Shown piece after piece: positions 14,848 through 39,197 of a stretch of 64,000 nt of DNA. The translations under genes and the position numbers were made by a program. Source of the DNA: Acinetobacter phage Acba_11. The first letter of the stretch is position 1. Each line of letters starts with the position of its first letter. A model generated the notes under the pieces. That model ran no database searches. It was not told where the DNA came from and worked only from the letters and a program-made list of their open reading frames with translations. Location of the stretch: the sequence record OQ101254.1; one strand, given 5' to 3'.

Positions 14848-15513
14848 ATGAAGATTATCTATACACGCATTGCAGCAGCGGCTGCATTAGAGACAGGCAT
14901 TATTGCTAACCCTGACTATTATGAAAACCCAAATTTGAAAGCAAAAGAGGTAATTATTTACGGTAATTATCCAAAGATTCAAAAGGATTATGAATCTTTG
15001 GAAGTTCCAGTTGAAGTTCGTAAGTTGGAAGTGCCACAAAAAACGACTTTGGCCACAGTAAATGTCGCAGTGGGAATTACCCCTGAACTTCAAGCTGTGA
15101 TGGATGATGCAAAAGCTGAATGTGAAAAGGTAGTTGAAGAAAACACTCAGCTTAAGCAGAAAATTGCCATCTTAGAGCAGGCCGGTGGTAACCAGTCAGA
15201 GTTGTTATCTGAAAATTCACGATTAAAAGATGCAGCAGTTTTAGCAGATAAAGCTCTCAAAGATGCTGAAGCTCAAGTGGTCGGTATAAAAACTGAATTT
15301 GAAGCTTTTAAAAATGATATTCCTGCAATGCAGGCACGTATTGCTGAATTGGAAGCTGGAAAAGCGGCAGAAAACCCAGCTACAGAAACGGCAGCTAATG
15401 ATTTTGAAAACTGGTCAAATGATCAATTAAAAGAGTATTTGGCTAGTAAAAACATTGGTTACAAGCCGTCTGCAACAAAAGCAGAACTTCTTAAATTAAT
15501 CCCGAAGGAATAA
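14848..15513 (+). CDS. head-associated protein with coiled-coil and C-terminal HeH/Rho-N-like motif, copy 1
   Basis: Central coiled coil; C-terminus WSNDQLKEYLASKNIGYKPSATKAELLKLI resembles SAP/HeH (Rho N-terminal) motifs. Confidence 0.5.
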   Translation: MKIIYTRIAAAAALETGIIANPDYYENPNLKAKEVIIYGNYPKIQKDYESLEVPVEVRKLEVPQKTTLATVNVAVGITPELQAVMDDAKAECEKVVEENTQLKQKIAILEQAGGNQSELLSENSRLKDAAVLADKALKDAEAQVVGIKTEFEAFKNDIPAMQARIAELEAGKAAENPATETAANDFENWSNDQLKEYLASKNIGYKPSATKAELLKLIPKE

Positions 15514-26224: not shown

Positions 26225-26251
26225 TCATTAAAAATTTGGAGATAAGTAGTT

Positions 26252-27208: not shown

Positions 27209-27229
27209 CTCATAAACATCTCACTATAA

Positions 27230-27255
27230 GAGGGCTATTAAGCCCTCTTTTTACA
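27230..27255 (+). terminator. rho-independent terminator
   Basis: GAGGGCT att AAGCCCTC followed by T5. Confidence 0.5.
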
Positions 27256-27272
27256 TTTAAGAGAAATGCATC

Positions 27273-27938
27273 ATGAAGCTAATTTATACACGTATTGCTG
27301 CTGCAGCTGCGTTAGAGGTTGGAACTATTGCCAATCCTGATTATTACGAACATCCGAATCGAAGTGCTGAAGAAGTAATTATTTACGGTGATTACCCGAA
27401 AATCCAAAATGATTACCAAGCTCTGGATATTCCTGTTGAAGTTCGCAAATTGGAAGAGCCTGCAAAAACGACATTGGCCACTGTAAATGTAGCGGTTGGA
27501 ATTACTCCAGAGCTGCAAGAAGTTATTGATAAAACTAAAGCTGAGTGTGAAAAGGTTGTTGAGGAAAACGGGCAACTTAAACAGAAAATCGAAATCTTGG
27601 AACAAGCTAGTGGTGATAGTTCGGAGTTAATTTCTGAAAACTCACGTTTAAAAGATGCTGTACTCCAAGCTGACAATGCTACTAAAGCGGCTGAAGAAAA
27701 GGTAGTAAGCATTCAAGCAGAGTTTGATGCTTTTAAAAATGATGTTGCTGCTATGCAAGCGCGTATTGCTGAATTGGAAGCTGGAAAAGCGGCAGAAAAT
27801 TCAGCAACAGAAACGGCAGCTAATGATTTTGAAAACTGGTCAAATGATCAATTAAAAGAGTATTTGGCTAGTAAAAACATTGGTTACAAACCGTCTGCAA
27901 CAAAAGCAGAACTCCTTAAATTAATCCCGAAGGAATAA
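27273..27938 (+). CDS. head-associated coiled-coil/HeH protein, copy 2
   Basis: Paralogue of 14848-15513. Confidence 0.5.
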   Translation: MKLIYTRIAAAAALEVGTIANPDYYEHPNRSAEEVIIYGDYPKIQNDYQALDIPVEVRKLEEPAKTTLATVNVAVGITPELQEVIDKTKAECEKVVEENGQLKQKIEILEQASGDSSELISENSRLKDAVLQADNATKAAEEKVVSIQAEFDAFKNDVAAMQARIAELEAGKAAENSATETAANDFENWSNDQLKEYLASKNIGYKPSATKAELLKLIPKE

Positions 27939-27942
27939 TGCA

Positions 27943-28332
27943 ATGAGCTTTATTACTGTAGATGACGCAAATTCAATTTTGGGCAGCGATTTTGCACCAG
28001 ACAGTGATAAAGCTCGTCTGGTAAAGCTGGCTAATGTTTGGATGAAAAAACGGATTGGTTTTGTACCAGATCCTATTGATCCACTTCTTAAAGACGCGGC
28101 TTGTGAAATTATCAAAGGAATTCTGGCCAAAGTAATTTATAACGGCAAAGACCAGCAGTTGAAACGTAAGAAAGTTAAAGCTGATTCTGTTGAGTCAGAA
28201 AAAGAATATCAGGACGGATCTGAAGCAATCTCTAGCTTTGAACAGATAGCAATTGATTTTATTGATTCACTTGAATTGAAAGATCCAAATGCAAGTTTTA
28301 ATGGCTTTGGCATACCACTTTACAGGGCATGA
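27943..28332 (+). CDS. head-tail connector (gp6-like), copy 2
   Basis: Paralogue of 15518-15907. Confidence 0.5.
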   Translation: MSFITVDDANSILGSDFAPDSDKARLVKLANVWMKKRIGFVPDPIDPLLKDAACEIIKGILAKVIYNGKDQQLKRKKVKADSVESEKEYQDGSEAISSFEQIAIDFIDSLELKDPNASFNGFGIPLYRA

Positions 28333-28333
28333 T

Positions 28334-28702
28334 ATGGGCTTACGTGACGAAATTCAGGCAGATATTGCTGAAGCATTTAATGAGGATCTGGCGGATGCGG
28401 TCCAAACATTTACATGTGACAGGGTTGTTAGTACCAACTGGAACCCTAAAACAAACACCTCTGAAAATGTCATTGAGCATTATGAGGGGCGTGGCGTTCT
28501 GTTTGGCTCATACAATCAATATGAAATACAAACTCTCGGAGTACTGGCCACAGATAAAAAGGCAACTGTGCTGCAGAATGAAGTTACCAAAGAGCCGATG
28601 ATTGATGACGAATGGAGTACGGCGCAAGGTACATATCGCATCATGCATATCAAACAAGATCCAATCAGTGCAAGCTGGAAATGTCAGCTTCGAAAAGTGT
28701 AG
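28334..28702 (+). CDS. structural protein, copy 2
   Basis: Paralogue of 15909-16277. Confidence 0.5.
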   Translation: MGLRDEIQADIAEAFNEDLADAVQTFTCDRVVSTNWNPKTNTSENVIEHYEGRGVLFGSYNQYEIQTLGVLATDKKATVLQNEVTKEPMIDDEWSTAQGTYRIMHIKQDPISASWKCQLRKV

Positions 28703-28710
28703 GGGCTAAA

Positions 28711-29115
28711 ATGGTTAATACCGAATATGTTCCAGAGTGGTACATCACACCTTTTCAGCATGTGCAATACACGCTTGCTAGAAATCAGCTTCACATGGAT
28801 TTGTTATTTGAAGATATGGATGAAGCTGATCAATTTTTGGATATGGGAGCGGATGCACAGGTTAGTACTTTTTCTGATGGTGCATATGCAATCGTCCAAA
28901 TTGGTGATACGGCGGATAAAGACAAAATTCAAGTATATGGATTGCTTTTACATGAAGCGGTTCACGTTTGGCAAATAGTAAAGAAGCGAATGGGTGAAAG
29001 TGAACCAAGTGTTGAGTTTGAAGCATATTCAATTCAAGCGATCGCTCAAGACCTATTTGAAATGTACGAAGCAAGCGAGGTGAGCAATGGGATGGAAGGG
29101 GAAAAAGCCGACTAG
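28711..29115 (+). CDS. HEAVH-motif structural protein, copy 2
   Basis: Paralogue of 16286-16690. Confidence 0.5.
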   Translation: MVNTEYVPEWYITPFQHVQYTLARNQLHMDLLFEDMDEADQFLDMGADAQVSTFSDGAYAIVQIGDTADKDKIQVYGLLLHEAVHVWQIVKKRMGESEPSVEFEAYSIQAIAQDLFEMYEASEVSNGMEGEKAD

Positions 29116-29455
29116 CTTTAGTGTTGATGTGGTGAAAAATGCTGAAGAACAAGTAAAGAAAATCACGATGGATACCGTGCAATCACTTGTAGTTTCGAGT
29201 CCAGTTGATACAGGTGCTTACAGAGCTTCTCATATCGTATCTATTGGAACTGCTGATTATGGTGTTCGTGAACCATCAACTAATCCAGTTCAAGATGCAG
29301 CAGTTCAAGCAGTCAAGTTTAAGCTTGGAAATCTGATCTTTATTCAAAACAACAAAGCCTATGGTCCGCGATTAGAAAACGGTTGGTCTGATCAAGCACC
29401 TCTTGGTATTTACAGCACTACTTTCACTTACATTACTCAAAAATATGGTGGCTAA
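29087..29455 (+). CDS. HK97 gp10-like protein, copy 2
   Basis: Paralogue of 16659-17030. Confidence 0.55.
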   Translation: MGWKGKKPTSFSVDVVKNAEEQVKKITMDTVQSLVVSSPVDTGAYRASHIVSIGTADYGVREPSTNPVQDAAVQAVKFKLGNLIFIQNNKAYGPRLENGWSDQAPLGIYSTTFTYITQKYGG

Positions 29456-29456
29456 G

Positions 29457-29855
29457 ATGCCAATGACATTAGAGCAAGCTAGACAAGCAATAGTCGACCG
29501 TATGATGGCCTTTACAGGAATTTCTCAAGAAAGAATCCATTATCCAAATGCACCAGGCTTCTTAGCACCAGCAAAGGGCTTATGGTGCCGCTTAACCATT
29601 AAATGGGGTCCAAGTTTCATTGCTGGGTTAGCCGATACACCCTGTACTCGACGTACTGGGAATATCTTGATTCAATGCTTTGCAAGACCAGACACGGGAG
29701 ACCAGGCAATAACCATTCTAAGTGTTGCATTACTTTCACATTTTGAATATTTCAGGATTGGGCATTTAGAATGCTTTCAAGGTCAAACGATAGATGCGGG
29801 TAAAGATGCTGACTTTCTGCAGTACAATGTGACGATTGGATTTACGGTGAATTGA
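29457..29855 (+). CDS. tail-completion-like structural protein, copy 2
   Basis: Paralogue of 17032-17430; start ATG 29457. Confidence 0.5.
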   Translation: MPMTLEQARQAIVDRMMAFTGISQERIHYPNAPGFLAPAKGLWCRLTIKWGPSFIAGLADTPCTRRTGNILIQCFARPDTGDQAITILSVALLSHFEYFRIGHLECFQGQTIDAGKDADFLQYNVTIGFTVN

Positions 29856-29856
29856 T

Positions 29857-30069
29857 ATGTCTTACATGCTGACGCTAGAAGAAAGTGAAATTAAAAAACA
29901 AGAGCTTGAACGACACTTGGCAGATGTAATGGCTAAGGAGCTAAGTAAATGGCAGTTGTCTAATAAATTATGTATTTCTGATGTAAAAATTCGCCTCGCT
30001 AATGTTAATAGCATAAATGGACCAAATTTAAATATTGTTACTGGAGTAAGTGTTGATTTGGATGATTGA
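29857..30069 (+). CDS. small structural/hypothetical protein, copy 2
   Basis: Paralogue of 17432-17650. Confidence 0.4.
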   Translation: MSYMLTLEESEIKKQELERHLADVMAKELSKWQLSNKLCISDVKIRLANVNSINGPNLNIVTGVSVDLDD

Positions 30070-30176: not shown

Positions 30177-31106
30177 ATGTCGAGTGGTGCACGTCAGATA
30201 ACACAAATCGCGAAGGAAACCACTGTTGGTACCACACCTTCACCCTTCGCACGTACGACCTTTGAATTTACTGAAAATGGCCTTGATGCGACAGTAACAA
30301 AGGAAGACTCTAACTCAATCACAAGTGGCCGTATTGCACGTTCATCAATGATTACCGGTGCAGAGTATGCCGGTGAATTAAAATGTGAAGCGAAGTACAG
30401 TTCATTAGTTCAAGACTTAATGGCTGCAGCTGCTTTTAATAACTGGTCGTCAAATGTATTAACTTTTGGTGGCACACTTCGTCAAACATTTTCTGTTTTA
30501 CGTGGCTTTGAAGATGTTAATGACTACCATGTTTTCCGTGGATGTCATGTAAACACTTTTGGAATTGATATTCCTGAAGCTGGCTTAATTACAATGACTT
30601 TCGGCCTTATGGCTCTTGGTCGTACAAACTTTTCTTCAGCACCGGCTGGAACAATTACAGCGGCAGATAACAATCCTAAAATGTCGAATGTCTCTGTAGG
30701 TGACATTTTAATTGACGGCGTTTCTCAAGCTGGGATTTCATGCTTGACCGCTTTTACATTTAATTGGGATAACACTATGCAGCTACAACGCTGTTTAGGT
30801 GGTGGTATTGATGCACGTGCAATCCTAGAAATGCTTGCAACAGGTACAGGTTCATTTACCGCAGCTTGGTCACGCAATACATCCGATATGTATGAAAAGC
30901 AATTCACTAACAAAACGATTTCATTAAAAGTTCCAATCACTGATACAGATGGGAATAAATATGAAATTTTTATTCCTAAAGCTGAAATTACTGCCCCATT
31001 ACCTAGTGGTGGTAATTCAGATCTTTTAAATGCTTCATTCGAATATAAAGTCGTAGAAGTAGCCCCAACCATCACTCGTACACCAGCAGCAGTTCCTGCG
31101 TCTTAA
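30177..31106 (+). CDS. major tail (tube) protein
   Basis: 309 aa immediately upstream of the G/GT-type chaperone pair; lambda-like tail gene order. Confidence 0.7.
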   Translation: MSSGARQITQIAKETTVGTTPSPFARTTFEFTENGLDATVTKEDSNSITSGRIARSSMITGAEYAGELKCEAKYSSLVQDLMAAAAFNNWSSNVLTFGGTLRQTFSVLRGFEDVNDYHVFRGCHVNTFGIDIPEAGLITMTFGLMALGRTNFSSAPAGTITAADNNPKMSNVSVGDILIDGVSQAGISCLTAFTFNWDNTMQLQRCLGGGIDARAILEMLATGTGSFTAAWSRNTSDMYEKQFTNKTISLKVPITDTDGNKYEIFIPKAEITAPLPSGGNSDLLNASFEYKVVEVAPTITRTPAAVPAS

Positions 31107-31116
31107 TCAATCTGAT

Positions 31117-31140
31117 AGCAGCCTTAGGGCTGCTTTTTTT
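31117..31140 (+). terminator. rho-independent terminator
   Basis: AGCAGCC ttag GGCTGCT followed by T7. Confidence 0.6.
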
Positions 31141-31150
31141 GGAGTTTAAA

Positions 31151-31684
31151 ATGGCTTTAAAAGTAAGCATTCAGACTAGTAAAACAGTTAGTAAATGGCG
31201 TAAGTATATTGATGGTGAAGGGAATGTATTAGCTGAATTTAAAGTACGTGGTATCTCATATAAACCATATCAAGTGGCCCTTGAGCGTGCAAATAATCAG
31301 ATTGCATCAAAAGGTTATGATGTAACTAAAGCTAGTAAAGACGACAAGCTATATCATGAATTGCTTCTTGAAGCTGCGGCCTGCCATTTAATTGAGGACT
31401 GGAAAGGCGTAGTTTTTGAAGAAGTAACCGAAAATCAAGAACTGATTGTGTCTGAACCAGAATATTCGCAGGAAAATGCAATTAAGTTGTTGAATCTAGG
31501 CGATCTTGGTGTGGCAATTTGGTTGTTTGTGAGACAAGAGGCGGAAAATATCCAAAAAGAAGCTGATGCATATAAGGATGAAGTAGTGGGAAAGTCATTA
31601 ACCTCTACAACTGGACCAAGTTCAACTCAGAAGAAGAAGCGAGCGACTACAACAAGAAACAAACAGCAATTGCAAAAGCCTTAA
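31151..31684 (+). CDS. tail assembly chaperone (lambda gpG-like), zero-frame product
   Basis: Position after the tube gene; contains slippery heptamer G GGA AAG (31588-31594) in the correct zero frame. Confidence 0.6.
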   Translation: MALKVSIQTSKTVSKWRKYIDGEGNVLAEFKVRGISYKPYQVALERANNQIASKGYDVTKASKDDKLYHELLLEAAACHLIEDWKGVVFEEVTENQELIVSEPEYSQENAIKLLNLGDLGVAIWLFVRQEAENIQKEADAYKDEVVGKSLTSTTGPSSTQKKKRATTTRNKQQLQKP

Positions 31685-31938
31685 ATTTAAAAATAGCTGA
31701 AACCATCCAAAAGCCTGAATACTCATTTACAGCCAATGCCATTCTTTCAGCATATAACGTAATTTCCCGTTCAAGGCGTTATGAGCAAGGCATTCCCTTG
31801 GCTTTGGATATTGCAGCTATATCTGCCTATTGTGATCATTATGAGATCCCAGTCGAAAGAGATATTTTTAACGACTGTATTTTTGCATTGGATAATTTGT
31901 TTTTGGATGAGGTGCATAAGAAAGCGAGTAAAAAATAG
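31151..31938 (+). CDS. tail assembly chaperone -1 frameshift fusion product (gpGT-like)
   Basis: The -1 frame is open from 31588 to TAG 31936-38 (own translation GKVINLYNWTKFNSEEEASDYNKKQTAIAKALNLKIAETIQKPEYSFTANAILSAYNVISRSRRYEQGIPLALDIAAISAYCDHYEIPVERDIFNDCIFALDNLFLDEVHKKASKK). Canonical lambda G/GT heptamer. Confidence 0.5.
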
Positions 31939-32067
31939 AAATCTATATTGCATTTGGCAAAAATCAAAGATAAATTGATGTCTCATACTTCTCACTCTTT
32001 GAGTAAGGGCCGCCGGTCGAATGTCGGGCTTTTTTTGTTAAGTGGTAATTCACCTACAAAGGAAAGC

Positions 32068-32211
32068 ATGATGAAGAACCTTACTCATGCAGAACCCTAT
32101 TTCATCATGCGTGAAAAAAAGGAACTGCAAAAGAGACTTTTAGATAAGAACAATGAACTATTGGAATTGATGCAAAGAGTTGAAAAATACTTGATGAGGA
32201 TAGAAAAATAG
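32068..32211 (+). CDS. small hypothetical protein (47 aa)
   Basis: RBS AAGGAAAG then ATG 32068; the longer track ORF 31948 spans a terminator-like hairpin, so the short form is preferred. Confidence 0.3.
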   Translation: MMKNLTHAEPYFIMREKKELQKRLLDKNNELLELMQRVEKYLMRIEK

Positions 32212-32227
32212 AGAGTTGTCTTTCTAC

Positions 32228-32258
32228 AAAAAAGCCCGCCTAATCAGCGGGTTTATTT
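32228..32258. terminator. bidirectional rho-independent terminator
   Basis: A6 CCCGC ctaatca GCGGG TTTATTTG; on the minus strand it overlaps the stop of the Mnt-like gene. Confidence 0.55.
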
Positions 32259-32506
32259 GTTTCTAGCTCTTCAATTCGTGCCATTAGTTTTTCAATTAAA
32301 ACAGTTGCGCGATCTAAATTCTTATTGCTCATATCTATAAGCTTCATAACTTCAGTTGGGATTTTCTCATTTATATCAAGGCTTTCTTCAAGTCTTGCAA
32401 CTATTTCAGCAGTTAAAGATCTTTCATTGTCTTTAGCCTTCTCTTCTAATAATTCTTTGAGCTTGCTAGGCATTCTAAAATTCACTTGAGAATAATCTTT
32501 AGCCAT
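32240..32506 (-). CDS. Mnt-like ribbon-helix-helix repressor (Arc/MetJ family)
   Basis: MAKDYSQVNFRMPSKLKELLEEKAKDNERSLTAEIVARLEESL versus P22 Mnt MARDDPHFNFRMPMEVREKLKFRAEANGRSMNSELLQIVQDAL. ATG refined to 32506 (the track start is TTG). Confidence 0.65.
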   Translation of the reverse strand: MAKDYSQVNFRMPSKLKELLEEKAKDNERSLTAEIVARLEESLDINEKIPTEVMKLIDMSNKNLDRATVLIEKLMARIEELETNKPAD

Positions 32507-32628
32507 GGACCATATACCGCAAATTGACAATTAACTAATCATATATAGCAAAAGTGCTTTACACAATGAAGCAAGAGTGCTATAAAGTAAAAATGCTATA
32601 TAGCAAAGGTGCTTTATTGGAGGTAAAA
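32507..32628. promoter_or_regulatory. divergent promoter/operator region between Mnt-like and Arc-like genes
   Basis: TTGACA (32524-29), 17 nt, TATATA. Direct repeats TATAGCAAAAGTGCTTTA (32544-61) and TATAGCAAAGGTGCTTTA (32599-616). Perfect palindrome TGCTATATAGCA (32594-605). Extra TGCTATA half-site at 32578. Confidence 0.6.
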
Positions 32629-32790
32629 ATGACAAGGCATGATAAGCAAATGAACGTTCGTATGGCACATGAAACAGTAAGTGAATTAAAGGAGGTAGCA
32701 AAGAAAAATCGTCGATCGGTAACGGCTCAGTTAAATCAAATCATAGAAGACTGGCTAAAAGAACAGAAACAACAGGATGCGAAAGCATGA
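32629..32790 (+). CDS. Arc-like ribbon-helix-helix repressor
   Basis: MTRHDKQMNVRMAHETVSELKEVAKKNRRSVTAQLNQIIEDWL versus P22 Arc ...FNLRWPREVLDLVRKVAEENGRSVNSEIYQRVMESF. ATG 32629 with GGAGG RBS. Confidence 0.6.
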   Translation: MTRHDKQMNVRMAHETVSELKEVAKKNRRSVTAQLNQIIEDWLKEQKQQDAKA

Positions 32791-32869
32791 AATTAACAGA
32801 CAACAAAAAAGCCCCTGAATCTTGGCGGATGCGGAGCTTGATTGAAGTCATAACAGTGAGATATGAACT

Positions 32870-33256
32870 ATGTTAAATATACCATTCGAATTTGATAAAG
32901 ACAAGGTTCTAGATATTACCGATCTACTGCCAACCATTCCTATTGAGATTCTTGAGAAAGTAACAGATCAAAACGGTTCTGTTTCGGCAGATGAAGAAAA
33001 TTTTCTAAAATCTGTAGGCCGTGCTGCGGAAAATGCAAACCTTCCAGTTTTAAAGGGATTAAGTGCTATTGGTGTGTTGCTTGCCAACGCAAATGAAGAA
33101 ATACCGTTAGGAACATTTAATGATGTTGGCTGGTTAATACAATCGCTTAGCGAACAAGTTTTAGCTATAAGCCATATGCAAGGGTTCGCTGACTTACTTC
33201 TTGATGCAAGTAATAAGAACAAAATCTCTAAGGGCAATGGAGGGCTAATGTCATGA
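32870..33256 (+). CDS. hypothetical protein between the arc-like and ant-like genes
   Basis: Track ORF; stop overlaps the ant start. Confidence 0.45.
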   Translation: MLNIPFEFDKDKVLDITDLLPTIPIEILEKVTDQNGSVSADEENFLKSVGRAAENANLPVLKGLSAIGVLLANANEEIPLGTFNDVGWLIQSLSEQVLAISHMQGFADLLLDASNKNKISKGNGGLMS

Positions 33257-33792
33257 ATATGCTTATTAACCAAGAAACTTTAATTCCAGTTGTTGATAGA
33301 GATATTGGCGGAGAGGTTCAGCCTTCTGTTGATGCACGTGAATTGCATAAGTGGCTTAAATCTGGGGAAATGTTTGCCACATGGATAAAAAAACGGATTA
33401 AGACCTATAAATTTATTGAAAATGAAGACTATATTAGTTTTTTGGTAAACCCCAAAAAACCTAATGGTGGGCGTTCTTCAAGAGAATACATATTAACTAT
33501 TGATATGGCTAAAGAGCTGTCAATGGTTGAAAACAATGAACAAGGTCGGGTTGCAAGACGTTATTTTATTAACTGTGAAAAAGCATTGCGACAAACAGCA
33601 TTTGGATTAATGAACCAATTCAACAGAGCTGTATTAGAGTTTGAGAAGTTTACTGAAATTGCTTCAAATGCTGGAAGAACATTATGTTTGGTTGGTAAGC
33701 AGTACAAACCTCAAGCATTAAGTAAGGTTGAGGAGCTGAAGCAAAAGATTACGCCTTTGCTCCCATTCGAAGAAGACGAGATGCAAGCTTAA
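33253..33792 (+). CDS. antirepressor-like protein (AntA/AntB N-terminal domain)
   Basis: VDARELHKWLKSGEMFATWIKKRIKTYKFIENEDYI matches the AntA-domain pattern DARELH..L.....F..WI..RI..Y.F.E..DY recalled from memory. Confidence 0.6.
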   Translation: MNMLINQETLIPVVDRDIGGEVQPSVDARELHKWLKSGEMFATWIKKRIKTYKFIENEDYISFLVNPKKPNGGRSSREYILTIDMAKELSMVENNEQGRVARRYFINCEKALRQTAFGLMNQFNRAVLEFEKFTEIASNAGRTLCLVGKQYKPQALSKVEELKQKITPLLPFEEDEMQA

Positions 33793-33803
33793 AAGAATTA
33801 AGA

Positions 33804-33827
33804 ACCCGCCAAGTGCGGGTTTTCTTC
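33804..33827 (+). terminator. rho-independent terminator
   Basis: ACCCGC caagt GCGGGT followed by TTTCTT. Confidence 0.55.
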
Positions 33828-33888
33828 ATGTGACATTTAGTAACCAGTTTGTTAAAGTTAGTACACTTTATAACAAACGGTGAAATTC

Positions 33889-34395
33889 ATGAAAAAGATT
33901 ATTTTTATTCTAGCTGCACTAGGAATTATTACAAGTCATGGGTGTATTACTATTCCTTCTCCAGAAGAAGTCCAAAGAAATGCTTATAAAGGATATTCTG
34001 AAGTGGTAGAACTGAATAGTATTCCTAAAGATCAAATATTTGAACTTTCAAAAATCTGGATTGCTAAATCTTTTAATTCTGCAAACAATGTCATTCAGTA
34101 TGCGGATAAAAATACTGGAATAATCATAGGGAAAGGTAACTTTTCTCTTAAATGCCCTGACAATGTAAAAGGTATGAATTGCTTAGCTTATACATCAACT
34201 AAAGCAGAATTTACTTTGAAAATAGAGATAAAAGATGGCAAATCCAGATTGACCTTTAGTGATGTACACCAAGCTGTAAATAACTACCCATTTTATGACA
34301 ATATTTCTAAACCTATTATTGATTCCCAGATTAAAGGGATAGTTAAGAACTATGGTCTTGATATCATAAATCAAAAGAATGATTCAAATTGGTAG
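33889..34395 (+). CDS. putative lipoprotein/secreted protein (moron)
   Basis: MKKIIFILAALGIITSHGC is a signal peptide with a Cys at the lipobox position; flanked by terminators. Confidence 0.5.
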   Translation: MKKIIFILAALGIITSHGCITIPSPEEVQRNAYKGYSEVVELNSIPKDQIFELSKIWIAKSFNSANNVIQYADKNTGIIIGKGNFSLKCPDNVKGMNCLAYTSTKAEFTLKIEIKDGKSRLTFSDVHQAVNNYPFYDNISKPIIDSQIKGIVKNYGLDIINQKNDSNW

Positions 34396-34445
34396 TAATT
34401 TGCTAATAAATAAAAGGTTAAATACTCATACTTAATAGTTTTTAA

Positions 34446-34470
34446 ATACCAAATAGCCCACTCATCGAGT
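34446..34470 (+). terminator. rho-independent terminator
   Basis: CCCACTC atcg GAGTGGG followed by T6. Confidence 0.6.
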
Positions 34471-34485
34471 GGGTTTTTTAATACC

Positions 34486-34516
34486 CAAAACAAAACCCCA
34501 GTAGCGCTAACTACTG
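34486..34516 (+). terminator. rho-independent terminator (tandem with the previous one)
   Basis: CCCCAGTAG cgctaa CTACTGGGG followed by T5. Confidence 0.6.
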
Positions 34517-34565
34517 GGGTTTTTCATTCCACCCACCGACGAAAGTAAGAGGAAAGTAAATCTAT

Positions 34566-34715
34566 ATGGAGCATTTTAAACCAATAGTGGAGCTTATGAA
34601 AGTGTCTATTGAAAAGTATGGCTTATGGCAGACAATTATTGCCTTTTTAATTTTGTTTTCCATACCAATTCTAATCTGGAAATTACCTGAAATCATTGCA
34701 GCGATTAAAGCCTAA
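34566..34715 (+). CDS. small membrane protein (49 aa), stand-alone moron
   Basis: RBS GAGGAAAG. Own translation: MEHFKPIVELMKVSIEKYGLWQTIIAFLILFSIPILIWKLPEIIAAIKA, with one predicted TM helix. Terminators on both sides. Confidence 0.4.
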   Translation: MEHFKPIVELMKVSIEKYGLWQTIIAFLILFSIPILIWKLPEIIAAIKA

Positions 34716-34743
34716 AACCGACCTATCAATGGTCGGTTTTTTA
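34716..34743 (+). terminator. rho-independent terminator
   Basis: ACCGACC tatcaat GGTCGGT followed by T6. Confidence 0.6.
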
Positions 34744-34766
34744 TTACCGAAATTTTGGAAGCAAAT

Positions 34767-35114
34767 ATGACGGATAAATCCAAATGGTTTGTTTTTAAGA
34801 AAAATGATCAAGTTTTTGGATGTTTCAGGATTAAGCCTTTTTCCGATCCTGAATTTGGTAAAGCCTATAAAATGCTTTGTACCAAAAAAAGTATTTTTAG
34901 AATGAGTGCCATGCGATCTGCCCAAGAGTTTGCAAAAATTATCGCAACTCATCTTATACAGGATTGGGAAAATATTGAACTTTCAAAAACAGGAATAGCT
35001 GGAGAAAAGGAAACACGGTATTCGCCTCAATCGGCCTATCAGCTATTGATGTATGGAGATCTAGGGGCTGAGATAACTTCATGGATCTTGGAAAAGTCCA
35101 AAAGTATTGCCTAG
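34767..35114 (+). CDS. second tail assembly chaperone paralogue (gpG-like, no frameshift extension)
   Basis: Shares HLIQDW and LLMYGDLGAEITSW with chaperone 31151 (HLIEDW, LLNLGDLGVAIW) and N-terminal SKW...F+I+; sits immediately upstream of the tape measure gene. Confidence 0.5.
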   Translation: MTDKSKWFVFKKNDQVFGCFRIKPFSDPEFGKAYKMLCTKKSIFRMSAMRSAQEFAKIIATHLIQDWENIELSKTGIAGEKETRYSPQSAYQLLMYGDLGAEITSWILEKSKSIA

Positions 35115-35132
35115 TTAAGACTCGATTTATTG

Positions 35133-35155
35133 CCGCCGCTTAAGGTGGTTTTTTA
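35133..35155 (+). terminator. rho-independent terminator
   Basis: CCGCC gcttaa GGTGG (one G:U pair) followed by T6 then ATTGCC. Confidence 0.45.
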
Positions 35156-35174
35156 TTGCCTGAAGGAAAGTCAA

Positions 35175-38100
35175 ATGGCTCAAGAAGCTCGCTTAGTAAT
35201 TGTTATTGATTCGGAACGTGCGAAACGCACTGCACAAGACTTATCAGTTGAATTGGATAGCATCACCAAAAAAGGGGATTTCGCCTCGAAATCTATGGAC
35301 CGGATGTCTGTAGCAACTCGTGCACTAGCAGGGTATATGGCTGGTTTATTAACAGTAGGTTCAGCCATTTCAAAGATGGATACATATACTGGACTACAAA
35401 ACCGCCTTAAGTTGGTCACTAATAATCAAGTTGAACTAAATAAAGCTACGGAAGACACTTTCCGAATTGCTCAAAAAACCTATTCAGCATGGGATTCTGT
35501 TCTACAGGTCTACCAGCGTTTTAGTGATAATGCCAAAACTTTAAACCTCACAATGGATGACACAGCACGTTTAACTGAAACAGTTTCTAAAGCTGTAGCA
35601 ATTAGTGGTGCAAGTGCAGAAGCTGCTGATGCAGCTTTAGTTCAGTTCGGGCAGGCCTTGGCTAGTGGAACGTTGCGTGGAGAAGAACTTAATTCTGTAA
35701 TGGAGCAAACCCCAGCACTAGCAAAGGCTATTGCTAAAGGTATGGGTATTACTGTAGGTGAATTACGTTCAGTAGCAGCTGAAGGAAAAATTACTTCACA
35801 AGAAATTGTAAAAGCGCTTAGAAATGTAGAATCTGATGTTGATGCTCTTTTTGCTAAAACAGATATCACAATCGAGCAGTCTCTCACACTCCTAAACAAC
35901 GAGATCACAAAATTTGTTGGCGAAGCAGGTAAGGGAAGTGGTGCGGCACAGGTATTAGCTGGATCAGTTCAAACTCTTGCAAGTAATTTAGATTTAATTG
36001 CTGATGGGGCTTTAGTAGTTGGTATTGGATATATCACTCGTGCAATTTTGATGAAGAGCGCTGCTATTAAAGAGGGAATGGCTTCAACTTTAGCGAGCCG
36101 CCAAGCATCTGTATTAAATGCTCAAGCAGAATATGCAGAAGCTACCGCTGCTTTGAATGCAGCAAAAGCTCATCTCGCGAATGTGCGAGCAACAAATGCA
36201 GAAACCCAAGCTAAATTTGGCGCAACAGCGGCAGCAACTCGATACGCACAAGCACAGGCAGCAGTAACTGCTGCTACAAATGCACAAACAGCAGCTCAAA
36301 TTAAGCTAAATACTGCAACTTCAATTGCAGGGAGACTAGCTAAAGGGGCGTTTGGATTAATTGGTGGGTGGGCTGGAGTTGCAACATTAGGAGTAATGGG
36401 ATTAGCGGCAGCCTATTCTTATTTTAATAATAAGGCAGAGGGGGCAAAGCAAAAGCTTGCTGAACAAGCTAAAGTTGCTGAGAAAGCTGATGAGGAGTTA
36501 AAAAAATTAACTGGCAATGATAAGGCTAAAGCAGTTAATGATTTAACTACTGCTTTTAATGCACAAAATAAAGCATTAGAGAAATCATCGCGTGCTGTAG
36601 GGTCTGCATTAATTGATATCGAGAACTATGCACGAGGAAATAGGGAGGTTGAAAAAATTTCCCAAGAAGCGAGAACTGGAACTATCAGCTATACAGAAGC
36701 CATTGAACGTCTAAATAAAATTAAGTTGCCTACAGATCTATATGAAAATCTGAAAAAACAGGCTGCGCAGTATGATGACAATGCATCTAAAGCAAGTTTA
36801 TCAGCTGAGAAACTTAAATTATTAAGAGTTGAAGTGAAACTTGGAGGTAATGAAGCACAAAATGCGGCAATTCAGCATCAAAAACAAGCGGATGCTTTAG
36901 GAAATACTGCTACTGAAGCAGAAAAGGCAACTAAGGCTTTGCAAGATTATCAAGCCAAGCAAAAAGATAGCGTTATTGATTCAATCTATAAATCAGGTTG
37001 GCTTGATAAAGGTTACACTGTTGCTCAAGCTAATGCCATTTTAGAACTGCAAAAAGCTAAAGGAATGAGTGCAATTTTGTCTAAAGATGAAATTGATAGC
37101 GCACTTAGAAATCTCAAGATCATCGAAGAACAACAGGAGCGAGAAGATAAATTAACTGAAGCTAAAAGAAAGCAAACCAAGGAAAGTGAGAAAAAACTTA
37201 AAATCACACAAGCTGAATTGGAAGTAGCCAAGCGATCTGCTGCTTTAATTGAATCGAGTGGTTTAGGTAAATATGCTGAAAGCAAAGGGATACCATCAAG
37301 TGTAATTGCAGGCTTATTGGCTCAAGAATCTAAAGGTATTCGAGAAGCTAAGAGTCATACTGGTGCAATAGGATATTTTCAAACAACCAGTGGTTATCGT
37401 AAACAGAACAATATGTCTGTTGCTGATAGTTATGACTTGGAAAAGTCGGGCAAAATTGTAATTGATAATATCGCCAAGGTTTATGAAAAAACAGGTGACT
37501 TGGCTCAGGCAATACTTTCCCATAATGCAGGTGAGGGTGGAGCAAGACAGTTTACTAAAACTGGCAAGGTTAAAGGCAGTGCAGAGCGAAATAAGGAGGT
37601 TTCGCAGTATGTAGCTAAGGTTTCAAGGTATTCCGATATCATTGCTGGTGGTGTTGGCAAAGGCGGTTTATCCGATGGTGATAGCGATAGAGCCTATGGA
37701 AAGCAAATCAAGGCACGTTTAGAGTTAGTTAAGCAAGGTCTAAACCTTCAAGAGCAATATGAGGAGGAGCAAGCGAAGCGAACCAAGGCTCGTAACGAAG
37801 AAATTAACCTTGCGCAACAAACGGGTCAAACAGCCTTAATCCCAAAAATTAATGAGCGTTATGATGCTGAAGATAAGTTAGCTCAAAAACAATTTGATTT
37901 TGAGGTAAATGGTTATAAGTGGACTGAAGAACAAAAGCTTGATTACACATATGAAACCAATTCATTACGTCTGGTTACTGAGGGGAAATTAACAGAAGAA
38001 CAGCGCAAAATTGCGATTGATTCGTTTAAGTTACAGCAGCAACAAGAATTAGGTTTACTAAAACTTGCTCAAGAGCAACGTCTTTTTCAGGCTAAACAAG

Positions 38101-39197
38101 CTCTACTGACAGAAACCCAAGCCATGCAGGAACGTTACAGACTCGAACGGGAGGAAATTCTTAAGAATACCAAGCTTTCTATAGAAGAGCGGCAAAAGCT
38201 AATCGCATTATCTAAAGCCAATCAGGATAAAGAGACACGCGATAAAGTGAATAATGCTGTTCAAAACTGGGGTGGTATTCAGGCGAGTATCACTGGTAAT
38301 AGTGGTCAATTCGCTTTAGAACAGGAGCGCTTTCGCCGTTATGATGCTTCTCAAAAAGTATTTGATAGCCAGCTTGCTGATATTGAAACTCAGGAACAAG
38401 ATCCAAATGCAAATATGGTAGCTCTAAATGCACAACGTGAACAAATCATGAAGGAGCACTTTGAGCGTTTGAAATTGATTGAATCTACTTATCAAAATGA
38501 TTCAATGAATCTCCAGTTGGGTTATGGAGCTAGTGTCACAGGGGCATTGGCTGGCATGTTTAAAAATATGCTTGGTGAGTCATCAAGTGCTTATCACGTT
38601 CTTTATGAAAGTCAACGTGCATTCGCATTGGCGCAGGCTGGAATGAACATGTGGAAAGCTGCTTCAGATGCTTACGCAAATGAGCCAGGTACTTGGTACC
38701 AAAAAGCGGCAGCAGCAGCGATCGCGACAATTAAATCAGGTACATTTGTATCTCTCATCCAAGCTGCAACCCCGCAAGGATTTGCGGATGGTGGTTATAC
38801 AGGTAACGGCCTAAAACACACTCCAGCAGGGATTGTGCATAAAGGCGAAGTCGTATGGTCGCAAGAAGATATCAAACGCTGGGGTGGTGTTAGCGTTGTT
38901 GAAAGTATGCGTCAAAGCAATCCAAGTGGTTATGCGAACGGAGGTTACGTTTCTAATAATCAGTCTGATGCTATTGCAATACGTAGAGAGTCTAGACAGT
39001 TTGAGGCAATCAACTCTAATCAATCTCAATTGAATACGAACGAAAAGCCAATAAATGTGTATGTCACTGTTAATGCCGATGGCACAAGTAAAACAGAGAC
39101 AGAAAACGACTCAAAACAATTGGGCCAAATGATTGGTAATGCAGTAAGAACTATTATTCGCCAGGAACAAAGACAAGGTGGTTTGTTATCTAAGTAA
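35175..39197 (+). CDS. tape measure protein with internal lytic transglycosylase (SLT) domain
   Basis: 1341 aa, coiled-coil rich. LLAQESKGIREAKSHTGAIGYFQ matches the SLT family-1 E-S...GA.G.MQ motif. Start refined to ATG 35175 (the track start lies inside the terminator hairpin). Confidence 0.85.
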   Translation: MAQEARLVIVIDSERAKRTAQDLSVELDSITKKGDFASKSMDRMSVATRALAGYMAGLLTVGSAISKMDTYTGLQNRLKLVTNNQVELNKATEDTFRIAQKTYSAWDSVLQVYQRFSDNAKTLNLTMDDTARLTETVSKAVAISGASAEAADAALVQFGQALASGTLRGEELNSVMEQTPALAKAIAKGMGITVGELRSVAAEGKITSQEIVKALRNVESDVDALFAKTDITIEQSLTLLNNEITKFVGEAGKGSGAAQVLAGSVQTLASNLDLIADGALVVGIGYITRAILMKSAAIKEGMASTLASRQASVLNAQAEYAEATAALNAAKAHLANVRATNAETQAKFGATAAATRYAQAQAAVTAATNAQTAAQIKLNTATSIAGRLAKGAFGLIGGWAGVATLGVMGLAAAYSYFNNKAEGAKQKLAEQAKVAEKADEELKKLTGNDKAKAVNDLTTAFNAQNKALEKSSRAVGSALIDIENYARGNREVEKISQEARTGTISYTEAIERLNKIKLPTDLYENLKKQAAQYDDNASKASLSAEKLKLLRVEVKLGGNEAQNAAIQHQKQADALGNTATEAEKATKALQDYQAKQKDSVIDSIYKSGWLDKGYTVAQANAILELQKAKGMSAILSKDEIDSALRNLKIIEEQQEREDKLTEAKRKQTKESEKKLKITQAELEVAKRSAALIESSGLGKYAESKGIPSSVIAGLLAQESKGIREAKSHTGAIGYFQTTSGYRKQNNMSVADSYDLEKSGKIVIDNIAKVYEKTGDLAQAILSHNAGEGGARQFTKTGKVKGSAERNKEVSQYVAKVSRYSDIIAGGVGKGGLSDGDSDRAYGKQIKARLELVKQGLNLQEQYEEEQAKRTKARNEEINLAQQTGQTALIPKINERYDAEDKLAQKQFDFEVNGYKWTEEQKLDYTYETNSLRLVTEGKLTEEQRKIAIDSFKLQQQQELGLLKLAQEQRLFQAKQALLTETQAMQERYRLEREEILKNTKLSIEERQKLIALSKANQDKETRDKVNNAVQNWGGIQASITGNSGQFALEQERFRRYDASQKVFDSQLADIETQEQDPNANMVALNAQREQIMKEHFERLKLIESTYQNDSMNLQLGYGASVTGALAGMFKNMLGESSSAYHVLYESQRAFALAQAGMNMWKAASDAYANEPGTWYQKAAAAAIATIKSGTFVSLIQAATPQGFADGGYTGNGLKHTPAGIVHKGEVVWSQEDIKRWGGVSVVESMRQSNPSGYANGGYVSNNQSDAIAIRRESRQFEAINSNQSQLNTNEKPINVYVTVNADGTSKTETENDSKQLGQMIGNAVRTIIRQEQRQGGLLSK

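What the first reader, a model, noticed from the sequence alone, without database searches (positions are those of the whole stretch)
32240..33792. P22 immI-like Mnt / Arc / antirepressor module embedded in the tail gene cluster
A divergent pair of ribbon-helix-helix repressors flanks a 120-bp control region. The leftward one is Mnt-like (FNFRMP...RSLTAEIVARLEESL) and the rightward one Arc-like (...RRSVTAQLNQIIEDWL). The control region has TTGACA-N17-TATATA, a perfect 12-bp palindrome TGCTATATAGCA and two 18-bp direct repeats TATAGCAAARGTGCTTTA. An unknown 128-aa gene and an AntA-domain antirepressor follow. This is the P22 immI (mnt / Pant / arc-ant) logic. It sits here as a moron between the tail chaperone and the tape measure gene, alongside a CI-type immunity region elsewhere. 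It implies a second layer of lysogeny control, or an anti-repressor weapon against co-resident prophages such as the tandem neighbour. The extra 128-aa gene between arc and ant is uncharacterised.
Basis: partly seen in the sequence, partly recalled or inferred. Interest (0 to 1): 0.7.

Follow-up and report, generated by a model that had tools for sequence, protein, structure and literature searches.

The report
P22-style antirepressor switch, Acinetobacter phage
An Acinetobacter baumannii temperate phage carries, between its tail-chaperone and tape-measure genes, a self-contained cassette built like the classic P22 immI antirepressor switch; it is a new variant of a known design, not a new kind of system.

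Summary
The described genes and repeats are real. Two divergent Arc-family ribbon-helix-helix (RHH) genes (32240-32506 minus, 32629-32790 plus) flank a 122-bp control region. A 128-aa gene of unknown function and an AntA+ORF11CD3 "antirepressor" follow, bounded by terminators.

One detail is wrong. TTGACA is 12 bp, not 17, from TATATA. The best promoter is TTTACA-N17-TGcTATAAA (32558-32586), back-to-back with a leftward one.

The two 18-bp repeats are really four dyad operators, unique in the 64-kb window.

- Both repressors carry the same Gln/Asn/Arg DNA-reading residues, which co-vary with operator sequence across about 11 related Acinetobacter cassettes.
- A conserved minus-strand promoter inside codons 3-12 of orf128, plus a conserved terminator, predicts a ~69-nt antisense RNA. 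It sits at exactly the offsets of P22 sar.
- orf128 and this RNA unit are constant, while the effector slot swaps between AntA, Bro-N, Rha and ORF6N proteins.

Only the RHH domains are homologous to P22. Function as an antirepressor is inferred, not shown. GenBank records already label these genes "Mnt" and "antirepressor".

Verdict: new variant of a known kind, moderate interest.

The parts
32232..32254 (.). Left boundary: bidirectional intrinsic terminator (A-run, 8-bp GC stem, T-run). It ends the mnt-like transcript on the minus strand and the upstream small ORF on the plus strand.
   Evidence: One search lists it on both strands.: -15.6 kcal/mol, z = -5.2.
32240..32506 (-). Mnt-like repressor, 88 aa. 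It has an N-terminal Arc-family RHH domain (residues 3-44) and a C-terminal helix with an a/d heptad pattern (about residues 64-81).
   Evidence: Pfam Arc 1e-10, 41.7 bits against a 20.4 cut-off; no Repressor_Mnt hit. It aligns to P22 Mnt (1mnt) and Arc (1baz, 1arq) over residues 2-44. Single-sequence AF2 gives a helix at 50-83 with pLDDT 88-96.
32510..32523 (.). Conserved 14-nt element CCATATACCGCAAA in the presumed 5' leader of the mnt-like gene. It is shared by cassettes with different operators and different Mnt N-termini. Role unknown.
   Evidence: Present in the window, L014, L028, L031, L048 and L051.
32538..32566 (-). Predicted leftward promoter (Pmnt-like): TTGTGT (32566..32561), N17, TATGAT (32543..32538). 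An alternative is the extended -10 TGCTATATA at 32550..32542. Operator O1 fills the spacer.
   Evidence: Promoter scan of the intergenic regions. The same back-to-back layout, with TTGTCA-N17-TAT(T/G)AT, appears in L008, L014, L028, L031 and L051.
32544..32561 (.). Operator O1, TATAGCAAAAGTGCTTTA. It is a dyad of TAtAGCA / TGCTtTA.
   Evidence: 0 mismatches to the motif.
32558..32586 (+). Predicted rightward promoter (Pant-like): TTTACA (32558-63), N17, TATAAA (32581-86), with TG at 32578-79. Operator O2 lies in the spacer.
   Evidence: Top-scoring rightward site in the control region. Same design as P22 Pant, TTGACA-N17-TATATT with Oarc in the spacer, and as the other Acinetobacter cassettes.
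32567..32584 (.). Operator O2, TGAAGCAAGAGTGCTATA (1 mismatch).
32583..32600 (.). Operator O3, TAAAGTAAAAATGCTATA (1 mismatch). It overlaps the -10 and the start region of the rightward promoter.
32599..32616 (.). Operator O4, TATAGCAAAGGTGCTTTA. The O3/O4 junction forms the 12-bp palindrome at 32594-32605.
32629..32790 (+). Arc-like repressor, 53 aa, RHH domain only. The Shine-Dalgarno sequence GGAGG lies at 32619-32623. GenBank records annotate a 74-aa version that starts inside the operators; that is probably an over-extension.
   Evidence: Pfam Arc 2.3e-7, 31.0 bits. Aligns to P22 Arc and Mnt. Homologues in the other cassettes are 51-54 aa.
32801..32869 (-). Predicted sar-like antisense RNA of about 69 nt. 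Its 5' end is single-stranded and complementary to the orf128 ribosome-binding site. The 3' terminator hairpin spans 32839..32807 and is followed by U6-G.
   Evidence: Fold. The hairpin plus U-run is conserved with compensatory changes. Model R1 finds the element next to orf128 in all 24 Acinetobacter-type loci searched. No transcript data exist.
32876..32904 (-). Predicted promoter of the antisense RNA: TTGTCT-N17-TGgTATATT. It lies inside codons 3-12 of orf128, at +7..+35 from the ATG.
   Evidence: Synonymous sites are frozen in the two hexamers: 5 of 7 codons invariant, against 4 of 40 elsewhere in the gene, Fisher p = 0.0015. P22 Psar occupies +7..+35 of ant.
32870..33256 (+). orf128, a conserved small helical protein of unknown function. 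It is the constant payload of the cassette. Its stop codon overlaps the effector start (ATGA).
   Evidence: No Pfam hit; PHROG 14904, function unknown. AF2 pLDDT 81, with two long helices at 40-72 and 80-123. No PDB fold match at E<=0.001 (best E 0.44). Only 42 representative clusters at E <= 1e-3 among 1.8 billion proteins.
33253..33792 (+). Effector: AntA N-terminal domain plus ORF11CD3 C-terminal domain, 179 aa, an 'antirepressor' by family name. This slot is interchangeable.
   Evidence: PHROG 5817 'anti-repressor Ant', 1.4e-64. Other cassettes carry Bro-N, Phage_pRha or ORF6N proteins in the same slot.
33803..33828 (+). Right boundary: intrinsic terminator after the effector gene.
   Evidence: hairpin 33803-33821.: -13.6 kcal/mol, followed by UUUUCUUC.

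Best explanation
This is a terminator-insulated accessory cassette (about 32232-33828) that controls a phage 'antirepressor-class' payload by the same logic as the P22 immI region. Only the anatomy, the conservation and the co-variation are shown here; every functional step below is inferred.

Inferred mechanism:
- In a lysogen, the 88-aa Mnt-like RHH protein is made from a weak leftward promoter. It probably oligomerises through its C-terminal coiled coil. It binds the four 18-bp dyad operators and keeps the strong rightward promoter shut.
- On infection of a cell that lacks this protein, the rightward promoter fires. It transcribes arc-like, orf128 and the AntA/ORF11CD3 effector.
- The 53-aa Arc-like protein then accumulates and shuts down both promoters, so the payload is made only as a burst.
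- A cis-antisense RNA of about 69 nt starts 1 nt upstream of the orf128 ATG. It pairs with the orf128 ribosome-binding site.
- The effector ATG overlaps the orf128 stop codon, so blocking orf128 translation should also lower effector translation. This would silence read-through from the tail (late) operon.
- The payload most likely inactivates a CI-type (HTH-S24) repressor, either the phage's own or that of a co-resident prophage.

Unlike in P22, both repressors appear to read one shared operator class.
For: Anatomy and domains:
- Gene layout and domain hits.
- The operator cluster is unique and non-random: 4 hits against 0.14 expected.
- The window's best promoters on each strand are back-to-back, with operators in both spacers and downstream. 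8 of the other 9 cassette types have a TTGAC-type rightward promoter and 6 a TTGTCA/TTGACT leftward partner overlapping its -35. P22 Pant also carries an operator in its spacer.

Shared specificity:
- Arc Gln9, Asn11 and Arg13 align to Gln, Asn and Arg in both window proteins.
- Within each of 11 cassette types the two RHH proteins share the triad, or differ only at the first position.
- The triad co-varies with the operator half-site: QNR with TAGCA, QKR with GTACCT/ACCTA, and T/D-R-R with AGCCTCA.

Antisense RNA:
- A conserved extended -10 promoter on the minus strand, with frozen synonymous sites.
- A conserved minus-polarity terminator with compensatory changes.
- The element is present in 24 of 24 Acinetobacter-type loci.
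- Its offsets match those of P22 Psar and sar.

Context:
- The cassette sits in a variable cargo slot of the late operon, like the P22 'ant moron'.
- The same 55-kb phage genome type (Acba_14) carries both CI and the cassette.
- In Ab105-2phi, which carries the same mnt/arc/orf128 core, deletion of CI gives a lytic phage. CI is therefore the primary repressor (PMC6921023).
- The AntA domain is 50% identical to the N-terminal part of proteins annotated 'antirepressor' in Stx-converting phages. Whether these include the Phi24B Ant, whose deletion lowers induction-driven late transcription (PMC3064807), was not checked.
Against: - No experiment or transcript data exist for any part.
- The effector and orf128 are not homologous to P22 Ant. 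The name 'antirepressor' is inherited from family labels.
- AntA, Bro-N, Rha and ORF6N N-domains look like DNA-binding modules, so the payload could be a transcription factor rather than a repressor binder.
- The Mnt-like C-terminus is not the Mnt tetramerisation domain.
- Promoter calls are consensus matches in AT-rich DNA. The scan found 14 sites in the region against 13 expected by chance.
- The leftward promoter is weak (-35 matches 3 of 6), and the mnt-like gene lacks a clear Shine-Dalgarno sequence.
- Neither Rfam nor a covariance model links the predicted RNA to P22 sar.
- Frozen codons at a gene's 5' end can also reflect constraints on translation initiation.
Confidence: 0.7

Rival explanations
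1. Same regulatory shell, different payload function. The RHH pair and the antisense RNA gate a burst of a Bro/Rha/AntA-type DNA-binding regulator, together with orf128. This regulator reprograms host or phage transcription, or excludes other phages. It does not bind a repressor.
For: The effector slot holds AntA, Bro-N, Phage_pRha and ORF6N N-domains interchangeably. None has P22_AR domains. orf128 has no informative fold match. In Phi24B, the Ant knock-out did not change superinfection immunity (PMC3064807).
Against: 776 phage records carry AntA-domain homologues, and those listed that carry a product annotation nearly all read antirepressor. The tight multi-layer repression, with two repressors and an antisense RNA, is what is known for a gene whose leaky expression would induce the prophage. 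Trans-acting antirepressors are documented in polylysogens (PMC3121763, listed).
Confidence: 0.2
2. It is a toxin-antitoxin or abortive-infection moron. An RHH antitoxin or regulator controls a toxic small protein (orf128) and/or the effector.
For: RHH proteins are common antitoxins. The same slot carries HicA/HicB in phage phi1_092021. orf128 has no known function.
Against: None of the six proteins hits a PADLOC model. There are two divergent RHH genes, not one co-transcribed antitoxin. A 79-nt spacer carrying a terminator and an antisense RNA separates arc from orf128. orf128 has no toxin-like domain. The effector belongs to the antirepressor-named families.
Confidence: 0.06
3. The RHH proteins are ParG-like centromere binders and the four repeats are a partition site.
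For: PHROGs 2685 and 795 are labelled 'partition protein ATPase'. Pfam ParG gives a weak hit to the 53-aa protein, 2e-4. Iterated binding sites are present.
Against: No ParA/ParF ATPase is nearby. The phage encodes an integrase. The repeats coincide with promoter elements. P22 Mnt itself carries the same misleading RefSeq label, 'partition protein ATPase'.
Confidence: 0.02

Closest known systems
Salmonella phage P22 immunity I region (mnt, Pmnt/Pant, arc, sar, ant), as annotated in NC_002371.2
   Same: - Divergent RHH genes (83 and 53 aa in P22; 88 and 53 aa here).
- A rightward -35/N17/-10 promoter with an operator in the spacer and another just downstream.
- An arc-to-next-gene spacer of 68 nt in P22 and 79 nt here.
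- An antisense promoter at +7..+35 of the next gene, with an RNA of 70 nt in P22 and about 69 nt predicted here.
- A terminator after the payload.
- A position as a moron inside the late operon.
- P22 Arc and both window proteins use Gln/Asn/Arg on the beta-strand, and the half-sites begin with TAG.
   Different: - Only the RHH domains are homologous.
- There is no Repressor_Mnt domain and no P22_AR_N or P22_AR_C domain.
- An extra gene, orf128, is the direct target of the predicted antisense RNA.
- There are four copies of one operator class, not separate Oarc and Omnt sites.
- The promoters are back-to-back with overlapping -35 hexamers. In P22 they overlap almost completely (14793-14821 against 14826-14798).
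- The sar covariance model gives no cross-hit.
- The host phage is an Acinetobacter siphovirus, and the slot lies between the chaperone and the tape measure rather than before the tailspike.
'ant moron' of P22-like phages (Villafane, Casjens et al. 2008, PMC2629481)
   Same: A highly variable cargo slot in the late operon that often holds mnt, arc and ant with other unrelated genes. Ten types were seen in sixteen genomes. Here the slot between the chaperone and the tape measure holds this cassette, or HicAB, or Arc+BRO+Rha, in related phages.
   Different: It is a different slot, in a different morphotype and host. The Acinetobacter cassette itself has three parts, and recombination joints fall at the 3' end of arc and at the orf128/effector overlap.
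Phage P1 immI operon (c4 antisense RNA, icd, ant1/ant2), from my own knowledge and not retrieved here
   Same: A small ORF precedes the antirepressor gene and overlaps its start, so the antirepressor depends on upstream translation. RNA-level control acts on that upstream ORF.
   Different: P1 c4 is processed from the same transcript and acts on separate target sites, and P1 has no RHH repressors. Homology between orf128 and Icd was not tested.
Trans-acting antirepressors of polylysogens (Gifsy/Fels prophages, PMC3121763) and Stx phage Phi24B Ant (PMC3064807)
   Same: Small phage proteins that inactivate CI-type repressors and can act across co-resident prophages. Antirepressor-annotated genes of Stx-converting phages share the AntA N-domain at about 50% identity over residues 4-115.
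   Different: Those genes are controlled by LexA or otherwise, not by an Arc/Mnt pair. Their C-terminal domains differ.

Membership tests
P22 immI region | Two divergently transcribed RHH repressor genes flanking a shared control region | tested here: met
   32240-32506(-) and 32629-32790(+). Both hit Pfam Arc above its cut-off.
P22 immI region | Mnt made of an Arc-type RHH domain plus the Repressor_Mnt (PF11423) tetramerisation domain | tested here: not met
   P22 Mnt hits Arc and PF11423. The window protein hits Arc only, even at E <= 1. Its C-terminus is helical with heptads, so it is analogous at best.
P22 immI region | 53-aa Arc repressor with Gln9/Asn11/Arg13 on the beta-strand | tested here: met
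   The protein is 53 aa. Gln7, Asn9 and Arg11 align to Arc Gln9, Asn11 and Arg13.
P22 immI region | Separate operators for Arc (Oarc) and Mnt (Omnt) | tested here: not met
   Only one dyad class, in 4 copies, was found. Both proteins carry the same reading triad. Binding was not measured.
P22 immI region | Pant with an operator between -35 and -10 | tested here: met
   TTTACA-N17-TATAAA has O2 in the spacer. P22 has TTGACA-N17-TATATT with Oarc in the spacer. This rests on sequence prediction only.
P22 immI region | sar antisense RNA, with its promoter inside the 5' end of the downstream gene and its terminator at the end of arc | tested here: inconclusive
   A promoter and terminator lie at the same offsets, are conserved, and show frozen synonymous sites. 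However, there is no transcript evidence, no Rfam hit, and model R1 does not hit P22 sar.
P22 immI region | Payload homologous to P22 Ant (P22_AR_N + P22_AR_C) directly after arc | tested here: not met
   The effector is AntA + ORF11CD3. P22 Ant is P22_AR_N + P22_AR_C. orf128 intervenes and is unrelated to Ant (hhalign probability 0.2%).
P22 immI region | Payload binds and inactivates the c2/CI repressor | not testable with these tools
   This needs binding and induction assays.
Pfam AntA/AntB antirepressor (PF08346) with ORF11CD3 (PF10549) | Domain hits above the gathering score | tested here: met
   95.7 bits against 27, and 67.5 bits against 25.
Phage moron in the late operon ('ant moron' type) | Own promoters and terminators; present or absent or replaced among otherwise syntenic relatives | tested here: met
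   Terminators lie at both ends. Relatives carry HicAB or other cargo in the same slot. Mosaic joints were mapped.
Toxin-antitoxin / anti-phage defence systems (PADLOC) | A hit to any defence-system model | tested here: not met
   No hits for the six proteins.
P4 epsilon / ORF106 (helper derepression, DUF5375) | Sequence relationship with orf128 | tested here: not met
   hhalign probability is below 1% for both. The distant orf128 homologues have no DUF5375 hit.

The most novel reading that the evidence does not exclude
The constant core of the system is the antisense-guarded small helical protein Orf128, not the 'Ant' gene. Orf128 would be a new family of derepression or adaptor proteins that either is the true antirepressor or licenses interchangeable AntA/Bro/Rha/ORF6N partners. 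Its distant relatives, which sit just upstream of the primase in AlpA-type P4-like islands, would then do the equivalent job against helper phages. In addition, the Arc-like and Mnt-like proteins would compete for one shared set of four operators. The switch would then be set by oligomeric state and dosage rather than by two DNA specificities as in P22.
Probability: 0.18. Interest if true: 0.7.

Novelty: new variant of a known kind. Interest (0 to 1): 0.45.

Why it matters
A. baumannii strains are commonly polylysogenic, and temperate phages of this group (for example Ab105-2phi) are being engineered for therapy by deleting CI. A second, antirepressor-type immunity layer could affect three things: whether such phages induce resident prophages, whether they escape homoimmunity, and how stable lysogens are.

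The family of cassettes offers a natural experiment in RHH DNA-recognition specificity. At least three reading triads go with matching operators.

It would also be a second, independently evolved example of the P22 sar arrangement. The many interchangeable effectors under one regulatory shell point to an arms race over repressor targets. Each of these points can be tested with simple binding, reporter and RNA-mapping experiments.

Tried and rejected
TTGACA-N17-TATATA was rejected on counting: the spacer is 12 bp.
- **Literature.** I found no paper that describes this cassette in Acinetobacter phages. The microarray table for Ab105-2phi uses another ORF numbering and does not cover these genes.
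- **Fold search for orf128.** The only PDB matches are generic helical hairpins such as CorA, at E > 0.4.
- **orf128 and P4.** The idea arose from the position of distant homologues upstream of a primase. orf128 is related neither to P4 epsilon nor to ORF106/DUF5375.
- **orf128 as a split-off part of P22 Ant.** Rejected.
- **Homology of the predicted RNA to P22 sar.** No Rfam hit and no covariance-model hit on P22.
- **Defence or TA reading.** No PADLOC hits. NCBIfam gave only sub-threshold RHH hits.
- **Distant orf128 homologues in viral contigs.** Three scans found nothing. The broad alignment A2 was too divergent to use for locus searching.
- **AF2 of the Mnt-like protein.** The single-sequence model gave one long helix and cannot confirm the RHH fold. 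The RHH assignment rests on Pfam and the PDB alignments.
- **Recent duplication of the chaperone gene around the insert.** Rejected. The two paralogues share only 33% identity over 58 aa.
Full report
**What the window is**

The region is 100% identical to Acinetobacter baumannii temperate phages Acba_3, Acba_13, Acba_14, Acba_18 and Aclw_9. In all, 40 Acinetobacter phage records match some part of the 31100-35200 query; about 16 of them cover the cassette itself.

Gene order around the finding is as follows:

| Coordinates | Strand | Feature |
|---|---|---|
| 30177-31106 | + | tail tube |
| 31139-31684 | + | tail assembly chaperone |
| 32071-32211 | + | 46-aa ORF |
| 32240-32506 | - | 88-aa RHH protein |
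| 32629-32790 | + | 53-aa RHH protein |
| 32870-33256 | + | orf128 |
| 33253-33792 | + | 179-aa AntA+ORF11CD3 protein |
| 33880-34395 | + | DUF4468 lipoprotein |
| 34755-35114 | + | second, distant chaperone paralogue |
| 35130-39197 | + | tape measure |

**Checking the observation**

Both small proteins pass the Pfam Arc gathering score. The 179-aa protein passes AntA and ORF11CD3. Against solved structures, both small proteins align to P22 Arc and P22 Mnt across the RHH domain. Their Gln7, Asn9 and Arg11 sit on Arc Gln9, Asn11 and Arg13.

The repeats are in fact four copies of one 18-bp dyad, TAWAGCA-N4-TGCTWTA, at 32544, 32567, 32583 and 32599. At one mismatch or fewer these are the only matches in 64 kb, against 0.14 expected.

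The claimed TTGACA-N17-TATATA is a miscount, because the spacer is 12 bp. The best rightward promoter is TTTACA-N17-TATAAA with an upstream TG (32558-32586), and operator O2 lies in its spacer. The best leftward one is TTGTGT-N17-TATGAT (32566..32538), and O1 fills its spacer.

Intrinsic terminators bound the unit at 32232-32254 and 33803-33828.

**Relatives**

orf128 homologues above 57% identity are confined to Acinetobacter. I fetched their loci from genomes, viral contigs and metagenomes. Nearly all of them show the same cassette: an Mnt-like gene on the minus strand, an Arc-like gene on the plus strand, orf128, and an effector whose ATG overlaps the orf128 stop codon. The exceptions are L015/L050 and L009, described under "The constant and the variable parts".

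The 700 bp upstream of orf128 fall into 12 sequence types, so the repressor-operator part is highly diverse.

In every type, the two RHH proteins carry the same beta-strand triad or differ only at its first position:

| Triads (Mnt-like / Arc-like) | Loci | Operator half-site |
|---|---|---|
| QNR / QNR | window, L012, L027, L039 | TAGCA / TGCTA |
| QKR / QKR | L008, L014, L028, L031, L048, L051 | GTACCT / ACCTA |
| TRR / DRR | L006, L011 | AGCCTCA |

The repeated dyads in each control region change with the triad. P22 Arc (QNR) reads TAGA boxes in ATGATAGAAGCACTCTACTAT.

This co-variation is the main evidence that the repeats are the operators and that both proteins of a cassette read them. 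P22 differs here, because Arc and Mnt have separate annotated operators. This point is inferred; no binding was measured.

Most cassette types also share a promoter layout. It consists of a near-consensus TTGACA-N17-TAnnnT rightward promoter with an operator in the spacer and another downstream, placed back-to-back with a TTGTCA-N17-TAT(T/G)AT leftward promoter whose -35 overlaps the first.

**A predicted sar-like antisense RNA**

The 3' end of arc (…AKA-stop) and the spacer up to orf128 are conserved across cassettes whose repressors are otherwise unrelated. The spacer holds a hairpin that is always preceded by A6-7 on the plus strand. On the minus strand this reads as a stem followed by U6-7, which is a minus-polarity intrinsic terminator. 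One lineage carries compensatory changes; its stem interior is inverted.

About 65 nt upstream on the minus strand, inside codons 3-12 of orf128, lies TTGTC(T/A)-N17-TGgTATATT.

I compared eight diverged orf128 genes. The codons under the two hexamers show no synonymous change in 5 of 7 informative codons, against 4 of 40 in the rest of the gene (one-sided Fisher p = 0.0015). The two codons that do vary lie in the spacer.

The predicted RNA runs from 32869 to about 32801, roughly 69 nt. Its 5' part is unstructured and complementary to the orf128 ribosome-binding site, and it ends in the terminator. A covariance model built on the element finds it next to orf128 in all 24 Acinetobacter-type loci searched, and in none of the loci that lack orf128.

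In the RefSeq annotation of P22, sar is 70 nt (15090..15021). It starts 1 nt before the ant ATG, and Psar spans 15125..15097, which is +7..+35 of ant. The window promoter spans 32904..32876, which is +7..+35 of orf128.

The geometry is therefore the same. Homology is not demonstrable, since there is no Rfam hit and no model hit on P22. I put the existence of this RNA at about two in three.

**The constant and the variable parts**

Mosaic joints fall at the 3' end of arc (about 32702-32778, or 32866) and at the orf128/effector overlap (33258-33270). The cassette therefore has three exchangeable parts: the repressor-operator module, the antisense-RNA-plus-orf128 module, and the effector.

The effector slot holds:
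- AntA+ORF11CD3 (window, L012, L014, L028, L031, L048);
- Bro-N (Ab105-2phi and Ab105-3phi);
- Phage_pRha (L006, L008, L011, L039, L051);
- ORF6N (L027).

In L015 and L050, orf128 and its antisense unit sit at the end of a different operon. That operon is controlled by an XRE-type repressor and already contains an ORF6N protein. In L009, nothing follows orf128. orf128 is thus the constant payload.

The orf128 protein is predicted to be a helical hairpin (pLDDT 81). It has no fold match and no Pfam family, and it belongs to a rare family of 42 representative clusters.

Distant members of that family (105 aa, GC about 0.63) lie immediately upstream of a Toprim primase in AlpA-type, P4-like islands. 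They are unrelated to P4 epsilon or ORF106.

**Comparison with P22 and membership**

P22 Mnt is Arc plus Repressor_Mnt, and P22 Ant is P22_AR_N plus P22_AR_C. The window proteins lack all three of these non-RHH domains, and orf128 is unrelated to Ant.

The cassette works like immI but is a member only at the level of the Arc RHH family. Its placement as cargo in the late operon parallels the 'ant moron' of P22-like phages (PMC2629481). In related Acinetobacter phages the same slot holds HicAB or DUF4258, an Arc-family gene, BRO and Rha genes.

**Context of the 'second layer' idea**

A CI-type repressor (HTH + S24) is at 63246-63992 and an integrase at 55438-56634. Window 50001-61193 is 99.97% identical to Acba_14 across the lysin-integrase junction, and the CI region is 96.7% identical to Acba_14 CI.

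The window is therefore in phage gene order, and CI and the cassette belong to one genome type. What looks like a neighbour is an extra packaging/head module (6589-17638 against 19016-30063, 85% identical).

In Ab105-2phi, which has the same mnt/arc/orf128 core, deletion of CI alone gives a lytic phage (PMC6921023). CI is therefore the primary repressor, and the cassette is at most a second layer.

No paper in the library describes the cassette. GenBank labels are inconsistent: 'regulatory protein Mnt', 'DNA-binding protein', 'antirepressor' placed on orf128 in Acba_3, and all 'hypothetical' in Ab11510-phi.

**Verdict**

The immI-like interpretation is right as an analogy and is strengthened by the predicted sar equivalent.

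The cassette differs from P22 in four ways: shared operator specificity, an extra conserved gene, non-homologous interchangeable effectors, and promoter geometry. Antirepressor function is inferred from family names and from the design of the control circuit.

It is a new variant of a known kind, of moderate interest.

Noticed in passing
window 6589-17638 and 19016-30063: There are two tandem packaging/head modules about 85% identical to each other (terminase to head-tail connectors). Phage Acba_14 has only one. The rest of the window follows the Acba_14 order, including a contiguous lysin-integrase junction. The window is therefore in vegetative order with a duplicated or hybrid head module, or else it is a tandem or recombinant prophage array.
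   Followed up: partly
window 32510-32523; also L014, L028, L031, L048, L051: A 14-nt element, CCATATACCGCAAA, lies just upstream of the mnt-like start codon. It is conserved between cassettes that differ in operators and in the Mnt N-terminus. The mnt-like gene has no clear Shine-Dalgarno sequence. The element could be a leader or translation element, or a recombination joint.
   Followed up: no
L059, L064, L067, L068, L074, L076, L078, L080-L082, L089, L090 (metagenome contigs): Distant orf128-family proteins (105 aa, with the motif GIxAIGELLA…IGWLIxSLG) sit in a conserved AlpA / winged-HTH / 90-aa ORF / orf128-like / Toprim primase / large helicase-like operon of high-GC, P4-like islands. 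They are not related to P4 epsilon or ORF106.
   Followed up: partly
L028, L039, L034 (about 80 nt upstream of orf128): In one lineage the interior of the spacer terminator hairpin is the reverse complement of the one in the window (AATCTTGGCGGATG against CATCCGCCAAGATT), with a different stem. This looks like an inversion of the hairpin that keeps the structure.
   Followed up: partly
window 31139-31684 and 34755-35114: Two distant tail-assembly-chaperone paralogues (33% identity over 58 aa, both PHROG 313) bracket the cargo slot. Related phages keep both and swap what lies between them: HicAB in one, and DUF4258, DUF4468, Arc, BRO and Rha genes in another.
   Followed up: partly
window 33880-34395, and terminators at 34455-34523: A DUF4468 lipoprotein gene follows the cassette as separate cargo, and a pair of strong bidirectional terminators comes after it. 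A DUF4468 gene also occurs in the same slot of Ab105-2phideltaCI404ad.
   Followed up: no
window 60604-61422 (-): A pentapeptide-repeat protein gene in the early-left region carries internal DNA repeats with a 15-bp period (60842-61270). The window and Acba_14 appear to differ in copy number here.
   Followed up: no
window 61542-61601 (-): There is a weak hit (E = 0.12) of the antisense-RNA covariance model. It consists of a terminator-like hairpin followed by UUUUCUUUUGUCUAUU, between two early-left genes. It is probably just a similar terminator.
   Followed up: no
L001 (Acba_3), L002 (Ab105-2phi), L052 (Ab11510-phi): Public annotation of this cassette is inconsistent. The Arc-like gene is annotated as 74 aa, starting inside the operators. 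In Acba_3 the label 'antirepressor' is attached to orf128 while the AntA gene is called hypothetical. In Ab11510-phi every gene is hypothetical.
   Followed up: yes
L009 (A. junii CP099548), 4394-5595: Here the cassette ends after orf128. The next called gene is a distal tail protein (Prok-JAB/NLPC_P60), so the effector, the tape measure and neighbouring genes seem to be deleted. This is probably a decaying prophage.
   Followed up: no
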